Shown here in pieces: positions 15,859 through 51,820 of a stretch of DNA of 64,000 nucleotides. Position numbers and translations under genes: made by a program. Every line of letters starts with the position of its first letter. The stretch's first letter is position 1. The DNA is from a virus. The notes beneath the pieces are model-generated. The model was given only the letters and a program-made list of their open reading frames with translations, did not search any database and was not told the DNA's origin. The stretch lies in IMG/VR virus record IMGVR_UViG_3300017917_000332, positions 10,453-74,452 of that record; one strand, written 5' to 3'.

Positions 15859-16829
15859 GTCTTTGGTATTTTCGAATCTGCTGAACTAACGCAACTAGGT
15901 GTAATACACTGTTGCGGTTGTTTAAACAATTCAAATCCTGTTGTTAGTGTGCCTAGTGGTTGATCGTGGCAACTGTAGCTACGTTTAACCTCGGCTCCCC
16001 TGATTATAACACTTTGATATCCAGCATTACAAGTCCAGTTGGTAAATTTATTAAATCCAAATGCATTAAATCTTTCAGCTTGATCAAACAAGTATTCTGT
16101 GTTGTCTTTGTCATACAGAGCAATTTGATAAACTTCTTCACCTTGAGACTGTTGAGGGAAACCATTTTTCATTAAATGAATCATGTCTTCAGTATATCCA
16201 TCAACTACTTGACTAGCAGTTGGATCGCTTTGTGGCTTTAGAGTAACGTTAATTCCTCTACTGTGCAGTCTAGACATCCTGTCGTAAAGCTCGTAGAACT
16301 TTTCTGGAACCATAACTTGATTAACAGTAACGTAGACGTTTTCGTCAATAAGTTTTAAACACTTGTCTCCAAATTCAGATTCTTTAGCAAATTCTGCATG
16401 ATAGCTGGCTGTAATACTTCTGCGCTGTAAAGCAGATGTTATACTTGCCCAGGTCTTCCACCAATTGATGCTGGGACTAAGATTAGTAGTCATGTGTATG
16501 CTTTGATATGGGCTGACTAAATCTTGTTCTAAATGTCTAGTTAGGTCTAGCAGTCTTTTATAAGCAGTAGGTTCCCCGCCACTAAAACTCCAATGAAATT
16601 CAGTAAATCCATTTTGGCGAGCTTGCCGTTTGATTTCATCAATAGTCTGAACATATAATTCAAATGATTGGTAATCGAGCTCATCGGACCTAGCATAGGG
16701 CCAGCAGTAAGAACATTTATAATTACAGAAGCGACCAAGTATCCAACTAACAGAAAACAATGGCCTATTGAGCATTGTCCTTTGTCCAAAACGGACAATA
16801 TCCTTAAATGGTATAGTATCGAAGTTCAT
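15837..16829 (-). CDS. radical SAM protein with C-terminal twitch-like domain
   Basis: CNYKCSYC; SGGEPT; CNAG..SC..C..CVSSAD; probable start ATG 16829. Confidence 0.92.
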   Translation of the reverse strand: MNFDTIPFKDIVRFGQRTMLNRPLFSVSWILGRFCNYKCSYCWPYARSDELDYQSFELYVQTIDEIKRQARQNGFTEFHWSFSGGEPTAYKRLLDLTRHLEQDLVSPYQSIHMTTNLSPSINWWKTWASITSALQRRSITASYHAEFAKESEFGDKCLKLIDENVYVTVNQVMVPEKFYELYDRMSRLHSRGINVTLKPQSDPTASQVVDGYTEDMIHLMKNGFPQQSQGEEVYQIALYDKDNTEYLFDQAERFNAFGFNKFTNWTCNAGYQSVIIRGAEVKRSYSCHDQPLGTLTTGFELFKQPQQCITPSCVSSADSKIPKTCTITKI

Positions 16830-16857
16830 TGACACTATTTACAAACGAATATATAAT
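16829..16857 (+). promoter_or_regulatory. consensus sigma70 promoter driving the tRNA-like RNA and the downstream operon
   Basis: TTGACA 16829-16834, 17-nt spacer, TATAAT 16852-16857. Confidence 0.9.
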
Positions 16858-16863
16858 TACAAT

Positions 16864-16972
16864 GTAGACGTGAGTGTAACTGGTAAACCTCCTCCAAAGG
16901 CTTCGGCCGGCGGAGGGTCCGGGGCTAGCCAATATGGCGCCTTTGTAGGTTCGAATCCTACCGTCTACACCA
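16864..16972 (+). ncRNA. tRNA-like RNA lacking a canonical anticodon loop (109 nt, CCA end)
   Basis: Acceptor GTAGACG/CGTCTAC, A discriminator, CCA; T arm GTAGG-TTCGAAT-CCTAC; D loop AACTGGTAA; anticodon position holds CCTCC..GGC-TTCG-GCC..GGAGG; long variable arm. Confidence 0.8.
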
Positions 16973-16999
16973 AATAACTTAGGCACAGTAGAGGCAGAC

Positions 17000-17329
17000 A
17001 TGAGAAGAACGTTAGCAGTTTTGTTAGCAGTAGTTTCAACAGCTAGTTGGGCACAACTTGAAAAAAGTCCGTACGACACTTTCGATGCTACTAAAAAGAT
17101 GTCAGAAACTGTAACTATTACATGGAAGACTGTGCCAAACGTACAAGAAGTTTGTAATAAAGAATCTAAAAGTAGAGGTAAAGGAACATTTGGTTATGCA
17201 GTCGACGCTTGTGCATTTTGGGACAAGAGTTTAAGCGGTACAGTCTGTACTATTGTAACTAAACCAAGACCTAACTATTGGGACGTAGGACACGAAATGC
17301 GGCATTGTTTCCAAGGTAATTGGCACTAG
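17000..17329 (+). CDS. secreted protein with HExxH motif
   Basis: Signal peptide MRRTLAVLLAVVSTASWA; 4 Cys; GHEMRHCF. Confidence 0.6.
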   Translation: MRRTLAVLLAVVSTASWAQLEKSPYDTFDATKKMSETVTITWKTVPNVQEVCNKESKSRGKGTFGYAVDACAFWDKSLSGTVCTIVTKPRPNYWDVGHEMRHCFQGNWH

Positions 17330-17888: not shown

Positions 17889-18039
17889 AGCAGAAGAAAT
17901 TTTTGAAGAAATTCCCGGGGATCCCGATAACGTCATGATGAAAATTCCTGACGAAATTTGTGAAGCCCAGGGATGGAAAGAGGGAGACACATTGAATATT
18001 CAAGTAGAAGACGGTAAGATTATCGTCACAAAGGTATAA
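17872..18039 (+). CDS. AbrB/MazE/SpoVT-like small DNA-binding protein
   Basis: MKIPDEICEAQGWKEGDTLNIQVEDGKIIV swapped-hairpin pattern; TAAATA at 17861. Confidence 0.7.
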   Translation: MQRTFKAEEIFEEIPGDPDNVMMKIPDEICEAQGWKEGDTLNIQVEDGKIIVTKV

Positions 18040-18257
18040 TGGCAAAAGACGATATCATTGAACTAACTGGTGTTGTTGAGGAAGTATTGCCAGGCAACAT
18101 GTTTAGAGTTAAGGTAGAAAACATGCAGGCTATTTTACTCTGTTACATGGGTGGAAAATTAAAACAACATAAGATCCGAATAATCTTAGGTGATAAGGTC
18201 AAAGTGGAAGTAAGCCCATACGATCTTACGAAGGGTAGAGTAACTTATAGGTTATAA
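18039..18257 (+). CDS. infA: translation initiation factor IF-1
   Basis: MAKDDIIEL.G.V.EVLP..MFRV...IRIILGDKVKVEVSPYDLTKGRVTYR, 72 aa. Confidence 0.97.
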   Translation: MAKDDIIELTGVVEEVLPGNMFRVKVENMQAILLCYMGGKLKQHKIRIILGDKVKVEVSPYDLTKGRVTYRL

Positions 18258-18259
18258 TC

Positions 18260-18934
18260 ATGAACAGCGTTTTGGAAACTGTATGCGGTATTTGTAACAG
18301 GGTTCGCCTAAAAACAAAAACTGGCACAAACTTCCAGACACTGTTAAAAGAGATACGCCGAGAGTTTCGAAAAACTGACATTGACCTAAAGATTAAAAGT
18401 CAGTCAAAAAAGTTCTTAACCCAAGAAGAATTCTACGTTAATGCCTATTATGACTCCGAAGACGATTTAGAAAAAGAAACGCCAATTGAAGTTATAATAT
18501 ATCACAACTTTAATAAAGAAGTAGTTTGGGACGAGAAACAAATTACTGATCTTCTTGTACAGGTTTTTGATGCAGTTGTACATGAAATAAAACATCAAAG
18601 ACAAAGTCGCAAACGACAACATATCCAATATTGGGATCACCACGATGCTGGATATCACTACAGAGAATACCTTCAAGATCCTGACGAAATTGATGCGTAT
18701 GCATTTAGTATAGCAATCGAACTCTGTAGAACTTTGGGCAAACACAGAGCAATTCGTTATATGCCAAAGTTCACTGCCCTTGCTAGGCTTAAGATCAACG
18801 ACCAATATGCTAGTCCAAACTTAAATGCTTATGTAAGCCATTTTGAAAAACCAATCAGCCCGTTACTACGTCTGTTAGCCAAAAAGATCTATGTGCGTCT
18901 GAAAAAGATTGACACCGATTACATTTTCCAGTAA
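18260..18934 (+). CDS. putative zincin metallopeptidase-like protein
   Basis: VHEIKHQRQ ... DPDEIDAYA (HExxH plus downstream Glu). Confidence 0.6.
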   Translation: MNSVLETVCGICNRVRLKTKTGTNFQTLLKEIRREFRKTDIDLKIKSQSKKFLTQEEFYVNAYYDSEDDLEKETPIEVIIYHNFNKEVVWDEKQITDLLVQVFDAVVHEIKHQRQSRKRQHIQYWDHHDAGYHYREYLQDPDEIDAYAFSIAIELCRTLGKHRAIRYMPKFTALARLKINDQYASPNLNAYVSHFEKPISPLLRLLAKKIYVRLKKIDTDYIFQ

Positions 18935-24361: not shown

Positions 24362-25156
24362 ATGAAACGTATTTTTACTCTCTCCATTCTTGCCGCCGCA
24401 GTTCTTGCTACTGGCTGTACTCGTATTGAAACAGGTGAAGTCGGAGTCCGTGTTGGCTTTGACAAGCAGGTTAAATCGGGTGAACTTATGCCTGGTTCGT
24501 TCAATCAGGTTTTGATTGGCGATGTGTTGACTTTCCCAGTTAAGGATGTAAACGTTGTCATCGATAACATGACTCCTGTTGCCAAAGATAACTCAACCAT
24601 GAAAGATTTGGATATGGTTGTTGTCTACAACATTAATCCTCAACAAGTATCGGAACTCTATTCAACTAAGAACCGTGCCTTCCACGCAGAAGCCAAAGGC
24701 GATGTTTATCTAATGTATAACTACATCGTCCAAAACGCCCGTAATGCTATGTACAAGGCCGCCCGTAAGTACGAAGCACTAGACATGGCTGATAACCGTG
24801 AAGCAATGGAAACTCAGGTCCGAGAAGAAATTCAAAAGAACCTTGCTGAAGAAAAGCTGGACGGTACTATTACTATCAGCCAAGTGTTGATTCGTAACGT
24901 AACTCCTGCTGACTCAGTCGTTGAATCTGCTAACGCACTAGTCCGTGCCAAGAATGAACTCAAGCAGAAAGAAGTAGAAGTTAAGACTGCTGAAGCAGAA
25001 GCACGTCGAATGGCCGCTCTTGCTAACAACTCTGCCAGTTCAATCGCATTTATGAACGCACAGGCCGCACTTAATATCTCCGAAGGTATTAAGAATGGTA
25101 AGGTACAGACTATTGTTGTTCCATCTAACATGACATCTTTGATGTTGCCTAAGTAA
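24362..25156 (+). CDS. SPFH/band 7/prohibitin family lipoprotein
   Basis: ATGC lipobox-like; RIETGEVGVRV; C-terminal AEAEA coiled coil. Confidence 0.88.
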   Translation: MKRIFTLSILAAAVLATGCTRIETGEVGVRVGFDKQVKSGELMPGSFNQVLIGDVLTFPVKDVNVVIDNMTPVAKDNSTMKDLDMVVVYNINPQQVSELYSTKNRAFHAEAKGDVYLMYNYIVQNARNAMYKAARKYEALDMADNREAMETQVREEIQKNLAEEKLDGTITISQVLIRNVTPADSVVESANALVRAKNELKQKEVEVKTAEAEARRMAALANNSASSIAFMNAQAALNISEGIKNGKVQTIVVPSNMTSLMLPK

Positions 25157-25703: not shown

Positions 25704-26324
25704 ATGACAAGACTAATTCCAACCGTTATCGAAACTGAAGCACGTGGCGAACGTGCTTATGACATTTACAGTCGCTTGCTTAAAGACCGTATTGTTATGC
25801 TTGATAGTGATGTTAACGAGCATACTGCCAGTGTTATTGTCGCACAGCTTCTATTCTTAGAAAGCCAAGGAAACGAAGACATCCAGTTCTTTATTAATAG
25901 TCCAGGTGGTCTGGTTACAGCTGGCTTGGCTATCTATGACACAATGCAGTTTATTAAACCTGATGTATCAACTATTGTTTTGGGACAGGCCGCAAGTATG
26001 GGGTCGTTCCTAGCACAGGCGGGTGCGCCGGGTAAACGTTTTGTCTTGCCCGAAAGCCGTACAATGGTACACCGTGTTAGTTCGGGTACACCAGGTACAC
26101 GTGGATCTGTCCACGTACAAGAACTTCAATTTGAAGACGCAAAACGTACCTATGAAGAAAGCCAGCGTATTAACAAGCGTTTAACTGAGCTATATGTTAA
26201 GCATAATACAGCGGGCAAAACCTACGATCAGCTTTACGAAACTATGAAATTTGACACGTTCCTAAGTGCAGATCAGGCTGTAGAATACGGTTTAGCCGAT
26301 AAAGTTATCACCAAACGCCCTTGA
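25704..26324 (+). CDS. clpP: ATP-dependent Clp protease proteolytic subunit
   Basis: [24 protein letters not shown] (Ser), MVHR (His), FDTFLSA (Asp), EYGLADKV. Confidence 0.95.
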
Positions 26325-26385: not shown

Positions 26386-26958
26386 GTGAAAAAATTAGAG
26401 GAATTTACCGCTGACGAACGAATTAATGTTAAACTACTCGATAATCATGTACATTTCTTAGTAGGTGAAATTGAAGAAGAAAACGTTAATAATTGTATTC
26501 GTTGGATTACATACGAGAACCTAGACTTTAAAGAAAAAACTCTTACACTGTATATCAACTCAACGGGCGGTGACTTATACCAAGCATTGGCCCTAATTGA
26601 TATCATGAAGTCTAGTAATCACCCAATTAGAGTAGTTGGAATTGGTGCTGTAATGAGTGCGGCATTTTTGATATTTGCTAGCGGTACTAAAGGTGAGCGG
26701 GCGGCCGCTTCGAACACTAGTTTTATGTGTCATCAGTTCAGTTCTGGAATAGAAGCCAAATATCACGACATCAAAGCCGAAATGAAAGAAAACGAATCAT
26801 TAAACACCAAAATGGTTAACATTCTCAAAGAGGCTACAGGACTGCCAACAGCCAAAGTTAAAGCCAAATTGCTACCGGCTTCGGACGTTTATCTTAGCGC
26901 AGACGAAGTAGTTGATTTGGGTGTAGCTGATTATATTTTGGGCTTAGAAGAAGAATAA
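26386..26958 (+). CDS. divergent ClpP-family protease
   Basis: YINSTGG, GAVMSAA, MCHQ, SDVYLSADE..GVADYI; GTG start. Confidence 0.85.
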   Translation: MKKLEEFTADERINVKLLDNHVHFLVGEIEEENVNNCIRWITYENLDFKEKTLTLYINSTGGDLYQALALIDIMKSSNHPIRVVGIGAVMSAAFLIFASGTKGERAAASNTSFMCHQFSSGIEAKYHDIKAEMKENESLNTKMVNILKEATGLPTAKVKAKLLPASDVYLSADEVVDLGVADYILGLEEE

Positions 26959-27018: not shown

Positions 27019-28338
27019 ATGACAACTCCATGGGAAGTTATCAAACAGTTAGAAGCAGATTCTAGCCGTCTAAACAAAGAAGCAATTATCTTTGACCAAG
27101 CAAGAGAAGGCAACGAAGAATTCTTCCAAGGGTGCAGACTAGCACTTGATACCCTAATTACTTTTGGTCTTAAACAAATTCCGGAGAAAACAAATGAAGA
27201 TGGCCCTGGCTTACCTTGGGATGGTTTTAATAGCGTTGTTCAACGTCTATGTAATCGTGACATCACAGGTAACAATGCCCGTTCCGCTGTTGATGCGATG
27301 ATGAACACTGCCACTAAGGCACAGTGGAATGATTGGTATCGTCGTATCCTTATCAAAGATCTACGTTGCGGTACTAGCGAAAAGACCGTTAACAAAGTTG
27401 TAGAAAAAGAATGGCCCGAATATGCAGTTCCTGTTTTTAGTTGCCAGCTTGCTCATGATAGTTCTAATCATGAGGGAAAGGTTTCAGGCAAGAAATATAT
27501 CGAAGTCAAGCTCGATGGCGTTCGAGTTCTTACTATTGTTCGTACAGATGGTCGCGTTGATCAATTTAGTCGCAATGGTAAAGAGCTGGTAAACTTTGAA
27601 CATATCACTAAACAGATCAGTGAAGTTGTAAAAAAAGATCCACCTAAGTATGACCTTGTGTTAGATGGCGAGGTTATGTCTAGCTCATTCCAGGATCTTA
27701 TGAAGCAGGTACATCGTAAGTCAGATGTCGAAGCTAATGACGCTGTCCTACATCTGTTCGACATGTGTCCACTAGACAAGTTTCAAGAAGGTCGTTGGGA
27801 TAAGGATCAAGAAACTCGTAGTCTTTATGTCTACGAATGGCATAAGAAACACAAAGCTGATCTGCCTAATGTTCGTGTCGTTGGACACGAACTTGTAGAC
27901 CTTGCTACCGACGAAGGCAAAAAACGTTTCAAAGAAATTAATCAGTTTGCCATCGACGGTGGCTTCGAAGGTATTATGATCAAGGATCCGAAGGCTCCTT
28001 ATGAATGTAAGCGTACTGCTAGCTGGCTCAAACTCAAACCATTTATCGAAGTAAGTTTGACTGTTGTTGCTGTTGAAGAAGGAACTGGTCGTAACGTAGG
28101 TAAACTTGGTGCATTAGTCTGTGAGGGTGTAGATGACGGAAAAGCAATTCGTGTTAACGTGGGGTCTGGGTTTTCTGATTCCGATCGTGATTCTTTTTGG
28201 AATAGTCGTGAAACCATTGTTGGGCAAGTTGTGGAAGTCCGTGCTGACGCTATCACACAAAACCAGGATGGAAGTTACTCTTTACGCTTTCCGCGCTTCC
28301 TACATTTTAGAGGGTTTGACAATGGCGAGAAAATATGA
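27019..28338 (+). CDS. ATP-dependent DNA ligase
   Basis: EVKLDGVR (motif I), LDGE, FEGIMIK, WLKLK, VGSGFS, SLRFPRF. Confidence 0.96.
   Translation: MTTPWEVIKQLEADSSRLNKEAIIFDQAREGNEEFFQGCRLALDTLITFGLKQIPEKTNEDGPGLPWDGFNSVVQRLCNRDITGNNARSAVDAMMNTATKAQWNDWYRRILIKDLRCGTSEKTVNKVVEKEWPEYAVPVFSCQLAHDSSNHEGKVSGKKYIEVKLDGVRVLTIVRTDGRVDQFSRNGKELVNFEHITKQISEVVKKDPPKYDLVLDGEVMSSSFQDLMKQVHRKSDVEANDAVLHLFDMCPLDKFQEGRWDKDQETRSLYVYEWHKKHKADLPNVRVVGHELVDLATDEGKKRFKEINQFAIDGGFEGIMIKDPKAPYECKRTASWLKLKPFIEVSLTVVAVEEGTGRNVGKLGALVCEGVDDGKAIRVNVGSGFSDSDRDSFWNSRETIVGQVVEVRADAITQNQDGSYSLRFPRFLHFRGFDNGEKI

Positions 28339-40090: not shown

Positions 40091-51819
<11,729 letters not shown>

Positions 51820-51820
<1 letters not shown>

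What the first reader, a model, noticed from the sequence alone, without database searches (positions are those of the whole stretch)
16829..16972. Anticodon-less tRNA-shaped RNA with its own perfect promoter, next to the radical SAM cluster
Seen in sequence: a 7-bp acceptor stem (GTAGACG 16864-16870 / CGTCTAC 16962-16968), A discriminator and encoded CCA; a canonical T arm (GTAGG-TTCGAAT-CCTAC); and a D arm AG(T)GT/ACCT with a bulged T around loop AACTGGTAA. There is no 7-nt anticodon loop. In its place is CCTCC-AAA-GGC-TTCG-GCC-GGC-GGAGG, an elongated arm capped by a cUUCGg tetraloop, followed by a ~28-nt variable region with nested stems (GGC/GCC, GCCA-ATA-TGGC). The TTGACA-17-TATAAT promoter places +1 at or next to G16864, so no 5' processing would be needed. 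The intact pairing in the substituted arms argues against simple decay. Established: bacterial LeuRS largely ignores the anticodon and relies on A73 plus tertiary features such as U8:A14 and A15:U48, all of which appear present here; staphylococcal non-proteinogenic tRNA-Gly species supply amino acids to Fem ligases. Inference: this is a non-decoding tRNA mimic. It could be an aminoacyl donor or substrate for the adjacent enzyme cluster, a nuclease-resistant decoy against anticodon-nuclease defences, or a ribosome/RelA modulator.
Basis: partly seen in the sequence, partly recalled or inferred. Interest (0 to 1): 0.88.

Follow-up and report, generated by a model that had tools for sequence, protein, structure and literature searches.

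The report
Anticodon-less leucine-type tRNA mimic of phages
A clade of large uncultured phages carries a conserved, promoter-driven RNA that keeps the whole body of a leucine tRNA but has a plain capped hairpin where the codon-reading loop should be, so it can be handled like a tRNA yet cannot decode, and no catalogue or paper I could search describes it.

Summary
Window 16864-16972 (+) is a real, conserved, tRNA-shaped RNA gene with no anticodon loop. ARAGORN misses it and it falls just under Rfam's tRNA threshold.

- **Family size:** it occurs in at least 170 IMG/VR phage contigs (over 110 distinct sequences, 95-119 nt), once per genome in 8 of 9 large genomes (133-364 kb).
- **Structure:** the acceptor, T, variable and anticodon-replacing helices all show compensatory changes. 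The replacing arm runs from 4 bp plus CUUG to about 13 bp, mostly capped by tetraloops (UNCG, GNRA and CUUG together are about half of the caps). Only 2 of 111 have a 7-nt loop.
- **Promoter:** a near-consensus sigma-70 promoter sits exactly 6 nt before G1 in 107 of 110 distinct upstream regions, so the RNA starts without a leader.
- **Leucine type:** its near-invariant D loop is found in 11 of 13 of these phages' tRNA-Leu genes and in 0 of 127 of their other tRNAs. A73, U48 and the T loop are fixed.

Best reading: a trans-acting, non-decoding tRNA-Leu mimic that keeps the known anticodon-independent LeuRS determinants. What it does after that (decoy or leucine carrier) is open.

The link to the radical SAM cluster is adjacency only. 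This scan has noted other anticodon-less phage tRNA mimics on unrelated DNA, but not this family.

The parts
16829..16857 (+). Sigma-70-type promoter, TTGACA (16829-16834), 17 nt, TATAAT (16852-16857). The 6-nt spacer TACAAT (16858-16863) puts +1 at G16864.
   Evidence: 12 of 12 consensus match. Over 110 distinct upstream regions of the family, the -10 hexamer has at most 1 mismatch in 109, the spacer to G1 is 6 nt in 107, the -35 hexamer has at most 1 mismatch in 106, and the 17-nt spacing holds in 108.
16864..16870 (+). Acceptor stem, 5' strand (GTAGACG), positions 1-7.
   Evidence: Pairs with 16962-16968. Six of 7 pairs show changes on both sides across the family and 99% of cells are paired.
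16871..16890 (+). U8 G9 followed by the D arm: a 3-bp stem (A-U, G-C, bulged U, G-C) and a leucine-type D loop holding A14 A15 and G18 G19 U20 A.
   Evidence: Invariant in all 100 contigs that were found by the 3' 28-mer alone. The motif occurs in 11 of 13 phage tRNA-Leu genes and 0 of 127 other phage tRNAs. The G008 subtype has AGC/GCU without the bulge, one compensatory event.
16891..16916 (+). Hairpin in place of the anticodon arm: CCTCC/GGAGG stem, internal loop, GGC/GCC, UUCG cap.
   Evidence: Four of 5 basal pairs covary. The arm is 12-35 nt with 57 distinct sequences. Of 111 caps, 32 are UNCG, 12 CUUG and 10 GNRA, and only 2 loops are 7 nt long.
16917..16944 (+). Long variable region: a 4-nt linker, a two-part stem (GGGGC/GCCTT and GCCA-ATA-TGGC), and U48 at 16944.
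   Evidence: Nine of 9 pairs show changes on both sides. The U just before the T stem is invariant in the 100 TL rows of A4 (101 hits minus one ordinary tRNA).
16945..16961 (+). T arm GTAGG-TTCGAAT-CCTAC.
   Evidence: Three of 5 pairs covary in the members found through the D-region pattern. T54 T55 C56 and A58 are invariant.
16962..16972 (+). Acceptor stem 3' strand (CGTCTAC), discriminator A73, and the encoded CCA.
   Evidence: A73, C74 and C75 are present in 100 of 100 sequences and A76 in 98 of 100.
16973..16999 (+). A/U-rich 27-nt spacer with no terminator, then the next ORF (ATG at 17000). It is the likely site of 3' endonucleolytic release.
   Evidence: No terminator-like site after the CCA. 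A same-strand ORF starts about 27 nt downstream in 88 of 101 loci. In the G008 subtype the next gene is instead tRNA-Arg(CCU), 5 nt downstream.

Best explanation
This is a stand-alone gene for a stable, trans-acting, non-decoding mimic of a class II (leucine-type) tRNA.

1. Host RNA polymerase starts at G1 from a near-consensus sigma-70 promoter, so the RNA needs no RNase P cut and begins with a 5' triphosphate. This is inferred from the conserved geometry.
2. The 3' end is freed at the encoded CCA by the host's tRNA 3'-processing enzymes from a transcript that runs on into mRNA or another tRNA. This is inferred.
3. The RNA folds into an L shape with a canonical elbow, acceptor end and long variable arm. 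The helices are shown by covariation.
4. The anticodon stem-loop is replaced by a hairpin of variable length, often tetraloop-capped, so it cannot read a codon. This is shown.
5. The parts that stay fixed are A73-CCA, U8, A14/A15, U48, a G18G19-U20-A D loop and the T loop. These are the parts bacterial LeuRS uses, and LeuRS ignores the anticodon. So the RNA is most likely bound, and probably leucylated, by host LeuRS and then handled as a tRNA by other acceptor/elbow-binding proteins. This is inferred.

My preferred use is a decoy that soaks up a host factor acting on tRNA bodies or CCA ends early in infection. A leucine carrier for a non-ribosomal reaction comes second.
For: - Structure and conservation: at least 170 loci and over 110 distinct sequences. 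All four variable helices covary, with 0 of 500 shuffles as good.
- Selection: flanking proteins are only 39-64% identical at the median. Ordinary tRNAs of the same phages are about 79% identical between genomes. The mimic's core is nearly invariant.
- No decoding: no conserved 7-nt loop, and arms as short as CCAG-CUUG-CUGG.
- Independent gene: there is one copy per genome, 30-40 kb from an array of 26-28 normal tRNAs plus a tmRNA where this was mapped (G001, G002, G004). The promoter geometry is kept even though downstream genes differ: a secreted small protein, an Hc1-like protein, or tRNA-Arg.
- Leucine type: the six best D-region matches among about 80 phage tRNAs are all tRNA-Leu, and the motif is in 11 of 13 Leu versus 0 of 127 others.
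- Literature (PMC9976931): E. coli leucine identity rests on A73, A15-U48, G18G19 and A20a, and tRNA-Leu variants lacking the anticodon and variable arms are still charged.
- Early expression is plausible: the promoter is host-type and one of four perfect ones in the window.
Against: - There is no expression data.
- The host is unknown, so E. coli LeuRS rules are an extrapolation.
- G3.U70, the AlaRS determinant, appears in 5 members. That argues that amino-acid identity is not tightly policed.
- The bulged U in the D stem is not found in normal tRNA-Leu.
- The T arm and acceptor resemble tRNA-Tyr more than tRNA-Leu.
- The conserved shape of the variable arm is not needed by LeuRS, so another partner may be the real constraint.
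- No partner protein was identified.
- One complete genome of the clade lacks the RNA, so it is dispensable in some settings.
- The invariance of the D region and of the 3' end is partly ascertained by the two search patterns used.
Confidence: 0.55

Rival explanations
1. Anti-defence decoy. The RNA is an abundant early tRNA look-alike that binds a host immune effector aimed at tRNAs, either a nuclease that docks on the tRNA body or a toxin that modifies the CCA end. With no anticodon loop it is neither consumed by the ribosome nor cut in the usual place. This can sit on top of the best explanation as its downstream use.
For: - A host-type consensus promoter with leaderless start fits immediate early expression.
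- The anticodon loop is replaced by a capped hairpin, about half the caps being extra-stable UNCG, GNRA or CUUG, and the arm turns over quickly, with 57 distinct arms.
- The mimic is separate from the decoding tRNA array.
- From my own knowledge, phage tRNAs are known to counter tRNA-cleaving defences such as PARIS and retron-Eco7. Toxins such as CapRel and MenT/AbiE act on CCA ends, and MenT3 prefers long-variable-arm tRNA-Ser.
Against: - No defence system or target has been identified.
- The well-studied anticodon nucleases recognise the anticodon loop itself, which is missing here.
- Strict retention of a leucine-type D loop is not obviously needed for a generic decoy.
- One complete relative lacks the RNA.
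Confidence: 0.3
2. Dedicated leucine (or other aminoacyl) carrier. The RNA is charged and hands its amino acid to a non-ribosomal acceptor: a peptide, a protein N-terminus, or a small molecule built by the neighbouring radical SAM / hydroxylase / aminotransferase cluster. Lacking an anticodon keeps it off the ribosome.
For: - A73-CCA and the LeuRS determinants are conserved (PMC9976931).
- The RNA lies divergently next to a radical SAM gene in 90 of 101 loci, and also in the G009 subtype.
- The cluster holds several unassigned ORFs.
- Staphylococcal non-proteinogenic tRNA-Gly is a precedent (my own knowledge).
Against: - No L/F-transferase, FemAB, LanB-N (PEARL-type) or class Ia synthetase turned up in four near-complete genomes of the clade plus the window's own ~20% fragment. 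The LanB search had no positive control.
- The G008 subtype is not next to the cluster.
- Gene order is conserved throughout this clade, so adjacency carries little weight.
- G3.U70 variants would switch the amino acid.
Confidence: 0.12
3. Cis-acting processing or stability element. The tRNA shape only recruits tRNA-processing enzymes to cut the primary transcript and set the 5' end of the downstream mRNA, or it protects that mRNA. The excised RNA has no role of its own.
For: - There is no terminator, and only about 27 nt lie between the CCA and the next start codon in most loci.
- tRNA-like cutting tags are known, such as mascRNA, and this scan's notes e1-3488085 and e1-5838321 propose similar tags in other phages.
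Against: - The element is at the very 5' end, so nothing upstream is released.
- It keeps a complete D arm, variable arm, A73 and a leucine-specific D loop that a cutting tag does not need.
- The downstream gene differs between subtypes (mRNA for unrelated proteins, or a tRNA) while the RNA and its promoter geometry stay the same.
Confidence: 0.08
4. Decaying or intron-containing tRNA gene (Tyr or Leu) with no function of its own.
For: It scores just under the Rfam tRNA threshold. Its best paralog by the covariance model is the phage tRNA-Tyr at 33.7 bits. One locus, L305, holds a truncated remnant.
Against: - Compensatory changes occur in every variable helix.
- The core and promoter are conserved across phages whose proteins have diverged to 40-60% identity.
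- No member regains a 7-nt anticodon loop, and the 12-nt arms leave no room for an intron plus an anticodon.
Confidence: 0.02

Closest known systems
Bacterial and phage tRNA-Leu (class II tRNA), including these phages' own tRNA-Leu genes
   Same: Both have a 7-bp acceptor stem, A73, an encoded CCA, a 3-bp D stem followed by G13.A22-type closure, the D loop GAAYUGGUAKAC, U48, a long variable arm and a canonical T arm.
   Different: The mimic has no anticodon loop. It has a bulged U in the D stem and a longer, two-part variable arm (about 28 nt). It has its own promoter with +1 at G1 instead of lying inside a tRNA array. Its acceptor and T arm are closer to tRNA-Tyr.
Synthetic minimalist tRNA-Leu lacking the anticodon and variable arms (Larkin et al. 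2002, as summarised in PMC9976931)
   Same: Both are tRNA-Leu bodies without an anticodon that keep A73 and the D/T-loop tertiary core. The synthetic ones are still leucylated by E. coli LeuRS.
   Different: Those are laboratory constructs. This is a natural, conserved phage gene that keeps a hairpin and a variable arm. Its charging is untested.
tRNA-like domain of tmRNA
   Same: Both are non-decoding and have an acceptor stem, T arm and CCA end. Both are handled by tRNA enzymes. These phages also carry a tmRNA.
   Different: tmRNA is about 350 nt, with a tag reading frame and pseudoknots, has G3.U70 (alanine) and no D stem, and needs SmpB. The RNA here is 95-119 nt with a full D arm, no coding part, and A3-U70 in most members.
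Staphylococcal non-proteinogenic tRNA-Gly (donors for Fem ligases); own knowledge
   Same: Both are tRNA-shaped molecules kept away from translation and proposed to serve a non-ribosomal role.
   Different: The staphylococcal tRNAs keep an anticodon and evade EF-Tu through T-arm changes. Here the T arm is canonical and the anticodon is gone, and no Fem-type partner was found.
mascRNA and other tRNA-like cutting tags; Y-RNA-like YrlA; T4 stable RNAs C and D (own knowledge)
   Same: All are tRNA-like folds without decoding function, and some are phage-encoded and of unknown function.
   Different: Cutting tags sit at the 3' end of a longer RNA and lack a full D arm. YrlA ends in a Ro-binding stem rather than CCA. 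No Rfam family (mascRNA and Y RNA families, if present in the library, included) matched, and no sequence similarity to any cultured phage beyond T-arm matches was found.

Membership tests
Canonical tRNA (Rfam RF00005) | Score at or above the curated threshold, or detection by a tRNA finder | tested here: not met
   27.8 bits against a 29-bit gathering score, with the anticodon arm skipped in the alignment. ARAGORN reports no gene in the window or in four relatives.
Canonical tRNA (Rfam RF00005) | 5-bp anticodon stem closed by a 7-nt loop carrying an anticodon | tested here: not met
   Arms are 12-35 nt, tetraloop caps dominate, and only 2 of 111 have 7-nt loops, which are unrelated in sequence.
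Canonical tRNA (Rfam RF00005) | Acceptor stem, T arm with TTCRANY loop, D loop with GG, discriminator plus CCA | tested here: met
tRNA-Leu identity set (bacterial, E. coli type) | Discriminator A73 | tested here: met
   100 of 100 distinct sequences.
tRNA-Leu identity set (bacterial, E. coli type) | Leucine-type D loop (A14, A15, placement of G18G19, A after U20) with U48 available for the A15-U48 pair | tested here: met
   The motif is in 11 of 13 phage tRNA-Leu and 0 of 127 other tRNAs. The relevant columns are invariant. The rule itself is taken from PMC9976931.
tRNA-Leu identity set (bacterial, E. coli type) | Actual leucylation by LeuRS | not testable with these tools
   This needs an in vitro aminoacylation assay or an in vivo charging assay.
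tmRNA | Tag-peptide reading frame, pseudoknots and G3.U70 | tested here: not met
   ARAGORN's tmRNA search is negative here, although it finds a true tmRNA elsewhere in a relative. The RNA is 109 nt, and 78 of 100 sequences have A3-U70.
Intron-containing tRNA | Removing an insert restores a 7-nt anticodon loop | tested here: not met
   The shortest members are CCAG-CUUG-CUGG, and no group I/II intron hit appeared in Rfam.
tRNA-like 3' processing tag (mascRNA type) | Lies at the 3' end of a longer functional RNA and has a reduced or absent D arm | tested here: not met
   The promoter puts +1 at G1, so nothing lies upstream. A full D arm is present.
Y RNA / YrlA | Ro-binding terminal stem; Rfam Y-RNA models | tested here: not met
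   No Rfam match even at E up to 10. The ends form a tRNA acceptor stem with CCA. I did not search for a Ro/TROVE gene.

The most novel reading that the evidence does not exclude
The mimic is charged by host LeuRS and serves as a dedicated, ribosome-proof aminoacyl scaffold. The divergently transcribed cluster of radical SAM enzymes, 2OG hydroxylases, an aminotransferase and a PP-loop ATPase would tailor or transfer the tRNA-bound amino acid. That would make it a phage-encoded tRNA-dependent small-molecule or peptide pathway with its own private carrier RNA.
Probability: 0.08. Interest if true: 0.95.

Novelty: new variant of a known kind. Interest (0 to 1): 0.78.

Why it matters
Phage tRNAs are normally explained by codon usage or, more recently, by replacing tRNAs that host defences destroy. 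This RNA cannot be explained either way.

- It keeps everything a synthetase and other tRNA-handling proteins read.
- It has deliberately lost the anticodon.
- It is made from its own strong, host-type (probably early) promoter without needing RNase P.
- It is held under strong selection across a clade with several hundred related contigs in IMG/VR, members of which reach 345-364 kb.

If it is charged, it would be the first natural counterpart of the minimalist tRNA-Leu substrates. It would also point to a use of Leu-tRNA outside translation, or to a new way of interfering with host tRNA biology. If it is a decoy, it adds an RNA-based counter-defence.

The family is easy to test, because the promoter is a consensus E. 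coli-type promoter and the RNA is short. It also shows that standard tRNA finders and Rfam miss a whole class of phage tRNA-derived genes.

Tried and rejected
- **Cultured relatives:** blastn of the 2-kb region and of the RNA against 50,697 phage records gave only T-arm matches to ordinary tRNAs (Tyr, Arg, Asp). tblastn with the conserved 185-aa neighbour found one weak hit, 27.8% identity, in a Bradyrhizobium phage.
- **Bacterial source or host tRNA:** a scan of 185,579 species representatives for GGTTCGAATCC-NNN-CGTCTACA gave 99 places. Of these, 96 are tRNA-Arg(CCG), mostly in Lachnospiraceae, and 3 had no tRNA call. None is the mimic.
- **Neighbour proteins as partners:** Pfam, PHROGs and the ESM Atlas gave nothing related to tRNA. 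The neighbours include a small secreted HExxH protein, a 185-aa protein of unknown family (Atlas score 0.76, which is noise), an IF-1 homolog and a phosphoesterase.
- **Enzyme families in five phage records:** Leu/Phe-transferase, class Ia aaRS, FemAB, LanB-N and the CCA-adding enzyme were all absent. The LanB search had no positive control.
- **Protein-anchored search for more loci:** with 2.5-kb flanks, only 7 of 80 loci held the RNA. This turned out to be mainly a flank-length problem, because in many genomes the RNA lies 3-5 kb upstream.
- **Single-sequence MFE fold:** ViennaRNA pairs the D loop with the variable linker. That pairing is not conserved in relatives, so I rejected it.
- **Literature:** four full-text searches found no description of such an RNA. 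The catalogue of 10,006 viral structured RNAs (PMC10690425) may contain it, but its supplementary files are not held.
Full report
**1. What is in the window**

- TTGACA (16829-16834), 17 nt, TATAAT (16852-16857), then a 6-nt spacer.
- An acceptor strand GTAGACG (16864-16870), followed by U8 G9.
- A D arm (16873-16890).
- A 26-nt hairpin, CCTCC-AAA-GGC-UUCG-GCC-GGC-GGAGG (16891-16916).
- A 28-nt variable region with two stacked stems (16917-16944).
- A canonical T arm (16945-16961).
- The complementary acceptor strand (16962-16968), then A73 and CCA (16969-16972).

The promoter scan gives a 12/12 match. ARAGORN finds no tRNA or tmRNA in the whole window. Rfam finds nothing at gathering thresholds. 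With relaxed thresholds the general tRNA model reaches 27.8 bits against a cut-off of 29, and it does so only by skipping the anticodon arm.

The window lies in a 74-kb IMG/VR virus record that CheckV estimates to be about 20% complete. Its G+C content is 39.6%. The RNA has 57% G+C.

**2. It is a family**

An exact search for the 28-nt 3' end (T arm, acceptor strand and ACCA) found 100 phage contigs. Every one carries the same kind of element, with a TATAAT-like box just upstream.

A second search used only the D-region motif. Two of these were chance hits and five were truncated at a locus end.

Together this gives 170 complete elements and 110 distinct sequences, 95-119 nt long. A third subtype adds 8 more loci.

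A protein-anchored scan shows that at least 516 IMG/VR loci encode the conserved 185-aa neighbour. Members of the clade with near-complete genomes are 345-364 kb.

The RNA is present once in 8 of 9 large genomes examined. It is absent from one genome rated complete, G005.

It was not found in cultured phages. A scan of 185,579 bacterial and archaeal species representatives for its commonest 3' end gave 99 places, 96 of them an unrelated tRNA-Arg.

**3. The fold is supported by covariation**

On a MAFFT alignment of 66 sequences, the anticodon-replacing helix and the variable-arm helices already show many double changes.

I built a covariance model and aligned 101 distinct hits (100 mimics and one ordinary tRNA) with it. 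The pair counts on that alignment are:

| Measure | Result |
|---|---|
| Cells forming a standard pair | 95% |
| Pairs with changes on both sides | 23 of 30 |
| Shuffles reaching the observed values | 0 of 500 |
| Slid registers | all much worse |
| Acceptor stem pairs that covary | 6 of 7 |
| Replacing-arm pairs that covary | 4 of 5 |
| Variable-arm pairs that covary | 9 of 9 |
| T-arm pairs that covary | 3 of 5 |

The D stem (A-U, G-C, bulged U, G-C) is invariant in the main family. In the G008 subtype it is AGC/GCU with no bulge, which amounts to one compensatory event.

One caveat applies. The model-based alignment leans towards the model's structure. However, the acceptor and T columns are ungapped, and the arm results were already seen on the MAFFT alignment.

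**4. There is no anticodon**

The replacing arm is 12-35 nt long, with 57 distinct sequences. The shortest is CCAG-CUUG-CUGG.
- Of 111 caps, 32 are UNCG, 12 are CUUG and 10 are GNRA.
- Thirty-six arms carry both AGUA and a downstream GAA, as in S-turn (loop E) motifs (a crude sequence test).
- Only 2 have 7-nt loops, and those two loops are unrelated.

Homologs do not show a normal anticodon loop with an insert, and there is no room for an intron.

**5. The selection is unusual**

- Flanking proteins are 39-64% identical at the median across loci.
- The decoding tRNAs of three of these genomes are about 79% identical to their orthologs at the median.
- The mimic's U8, G9, A14/A15, G18G19-U20-A, U48, T54-T55-C56, A58, A73 and C74-C75 are invariant in the 100 TL rows of A4 (101 hits minus one ordinary tRNA), and A76 is present in 98.

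Part of this invariance is ascertainment. It is limited by the design of the two searches: the D region was free in the 28-mer search and did not vary, whereas the acceptor and T stems were free in the D-motif search and did vary, always with compensation.

**6. The promoter is part of the gene**

Counts over 110 distinct upstream regions:

| Feature | Count |
|---|---|
| -10 hexamer with at most 1 mismatch | 109 |
| -35 hexamer with at most 1 mismatch | 106 |
| 17-nt spacing between the hexamers | 108 |
| Exactly 6 nt from the -10 hexamer to G1 | 107 |
| Pyrimidine at position -1 | 78 |

This puts the start at G1. The RNA would therefore be made without a 5' leader and without RNase P, carrying a 5' triphosphate. 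That last point is inference.

Such promoters are common on this strand of the window: 4 are perfect and 8 have one mismatch. The promoter is real but not unique.

No terminator follows the CCA. In 88 of 101 loci an ORF starts about 27 nt downstream.

**7. It behaves as an independent gene**

The downstream gene differs between subtypes.
- In the window's subtype it is a small signal-peptide protein with an HExxH motif, followed by a 185-aa protein and an IF-1 homolog.
- In the G009 subtype it is an Hc1-like protein.
- In the G008 subtype it is tRNA-Arg(CCU), starting 5 nt after the CCA.

The RNA and its promoter geometry are the constant part. This argues against a leader specific to one mRNA.

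A divergent radical SAM gene lies upstream in 90 of 101 loci and in the G009 subtype, but not in G008.

**8. The RNA is leucine-type**

Among about 80 tRNAs in the arrays of three of these phages, the six best matches to the mimic's D region are all tRNA-Leu.

The motif G[GA]AAY(N0-2)GGTA[GTA]AC occurs in 11 of 13 tRNA-Leu and in 0 of 127 other tRNAs from the phage arrays.

The acceptor and T arm are closer to tRNA-Tyr. The covariance model's best paralog is tRNA-Tyr at 33.7 bits, and there is 93% identity over 30 nt to the tRNA-Tyr of Aeromonas phages. The acceptor stem, however, covaries freely within the family.

The 2023 identity review (PMC9976931) makes three relevant statements.
- In E. 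coli, A73, the A15-U48 pair, G18G19 and A20a specify leucine, and the anticodon and the long arm do not.
- tRNA-Leu variants lacking both arms remain active.
- The anticodon arm is needed for editing, not for charging.

The fixed parts of the mimic are the parts LeuRS reads. The free parts are the ones it ignores.

The points against a clean leucine identity are the bulged U, the conserved shape of the variable arm, five members with G3.U70, and the unknown host.

**9. What I could not link**

The upstream cluster holds radical SAM/SPASM enzymes, Asp/Asn-hydroxylase-like proteins, a class III aminotransferase and a PP-loop ATPase. It contains no recognisable aminoacyl-tRNA-dependent enzyme.

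Four near-complete genomes of the clade plus the window's own ~20% fragment lack Leu/Phe-transferase, class Ia synthetases, FemAB, LanB-N and a CCA-adding enzyme.

**10. Verdict**

This is a real, strongly selected family found only in phage contigs: anticodon-less, leucine-type tRNA mimics, each with its own leaderless promoter.

The best-supported mechanism is trans action through the acceptor/elbow half, with recognition by LeuRS and probably charging. I put its overall confidence at 0.55.
- That it is a functional non-decoding RNA gene: about 0.9.
- That it is charged with leucine: about 0.4.

The downstream use is open. I give a decoy role 0.3, an aminoacyl-carrier role 0.12, a cis processing role 0.08 and decay 0.02.

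I found no paper or Rfam family describing it.

Earlier notes of this scan describe other anticodon-less phage tRNA mimics on unrelated DNA. Examples are a row of tRNA-Glu mimics and acceptor minihelices. The phenomenon may therefore be broader, but those are unchecked notes and not this family.

Noticed in passing
window 18039-18257 (+): A 72-aa homolog of translation initiation factor IF-1 (infA), 52-57% identical to copies in Lak megaphages and other huge phages. It is conserved at about +1.06 kb from the mimic in 81 loci.
   Followed up: partly
window 25704-26324 and 26386-26958 (+): Two adjacent ClpP protease paralogs (Pfam CLP_protease, E = 5e-61 and 3e-33). An SPFH/Band 7 protein lies upstream at 24362-25156 and an ATP-dependent DNA ligase lies downstream at 27019-28338.
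   Followed up: no
L210:2212-2303 (-), L211:10896-10987 (-), L212:11787-11878 (-): A 92-nt tRNA with a long variable arm that ARAGORN calls tRNA-Ile(UAU). It has a class II shape with an AUA-reading anticodon and is conserved in the tRNA arrays of three related jumbo phages. That is an unusual combination.
   Followed up: no
L380:9840-10304 (-) (genome G005, a relative that lacks the mimic): A GOLLD RNA (Rfam RF02032, 198 bits) with an embedded tRNA-like segment, sitting inside the phage tRNA array.
   Followed up: no
L211:16208-16624 (-) (genome G002): A phage-encoded tmRNA, with the tag ANANTFEYFKVPASVAFSANDADFAMAA, lies next to an array of 27 tRNAs. In G001 and G002 no tRNA-Tyr or tRNA-Cys was found in the stretch of the array that I fetched.
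   Followed up: no
L305:1871-1999 (+): A truncated remnant of the mimic. Only the 3' half (variable-arm 3' strand, T arm, acceptor strand and ACCA) is left, fused to the upstream radical SAM gene region. It is an example of loss by deletion.
   Followed up: partly
window 17000-17329 (+) and 18260-18934 (+): Two proteins of no known family that carry HExxH motifs. One is a 109-aa protein with a signal peptide (HEMRH near the C-terminus) and the other is a 224-aa protein (HEIKH). They may be small metallopeptidases.
   Followed up: no
window 40091-51820 (+): A single 3,909-aa ORF followed by ORFs of 981, 512, 880 and 830 aa. The 512-, 880- and 830-aa ORFs gave no PHROG hit; the 3,909- and 981-aa ORFs were not searched. 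They are probably virion or injection proteins of the jumbo phage.
   Followed up: no
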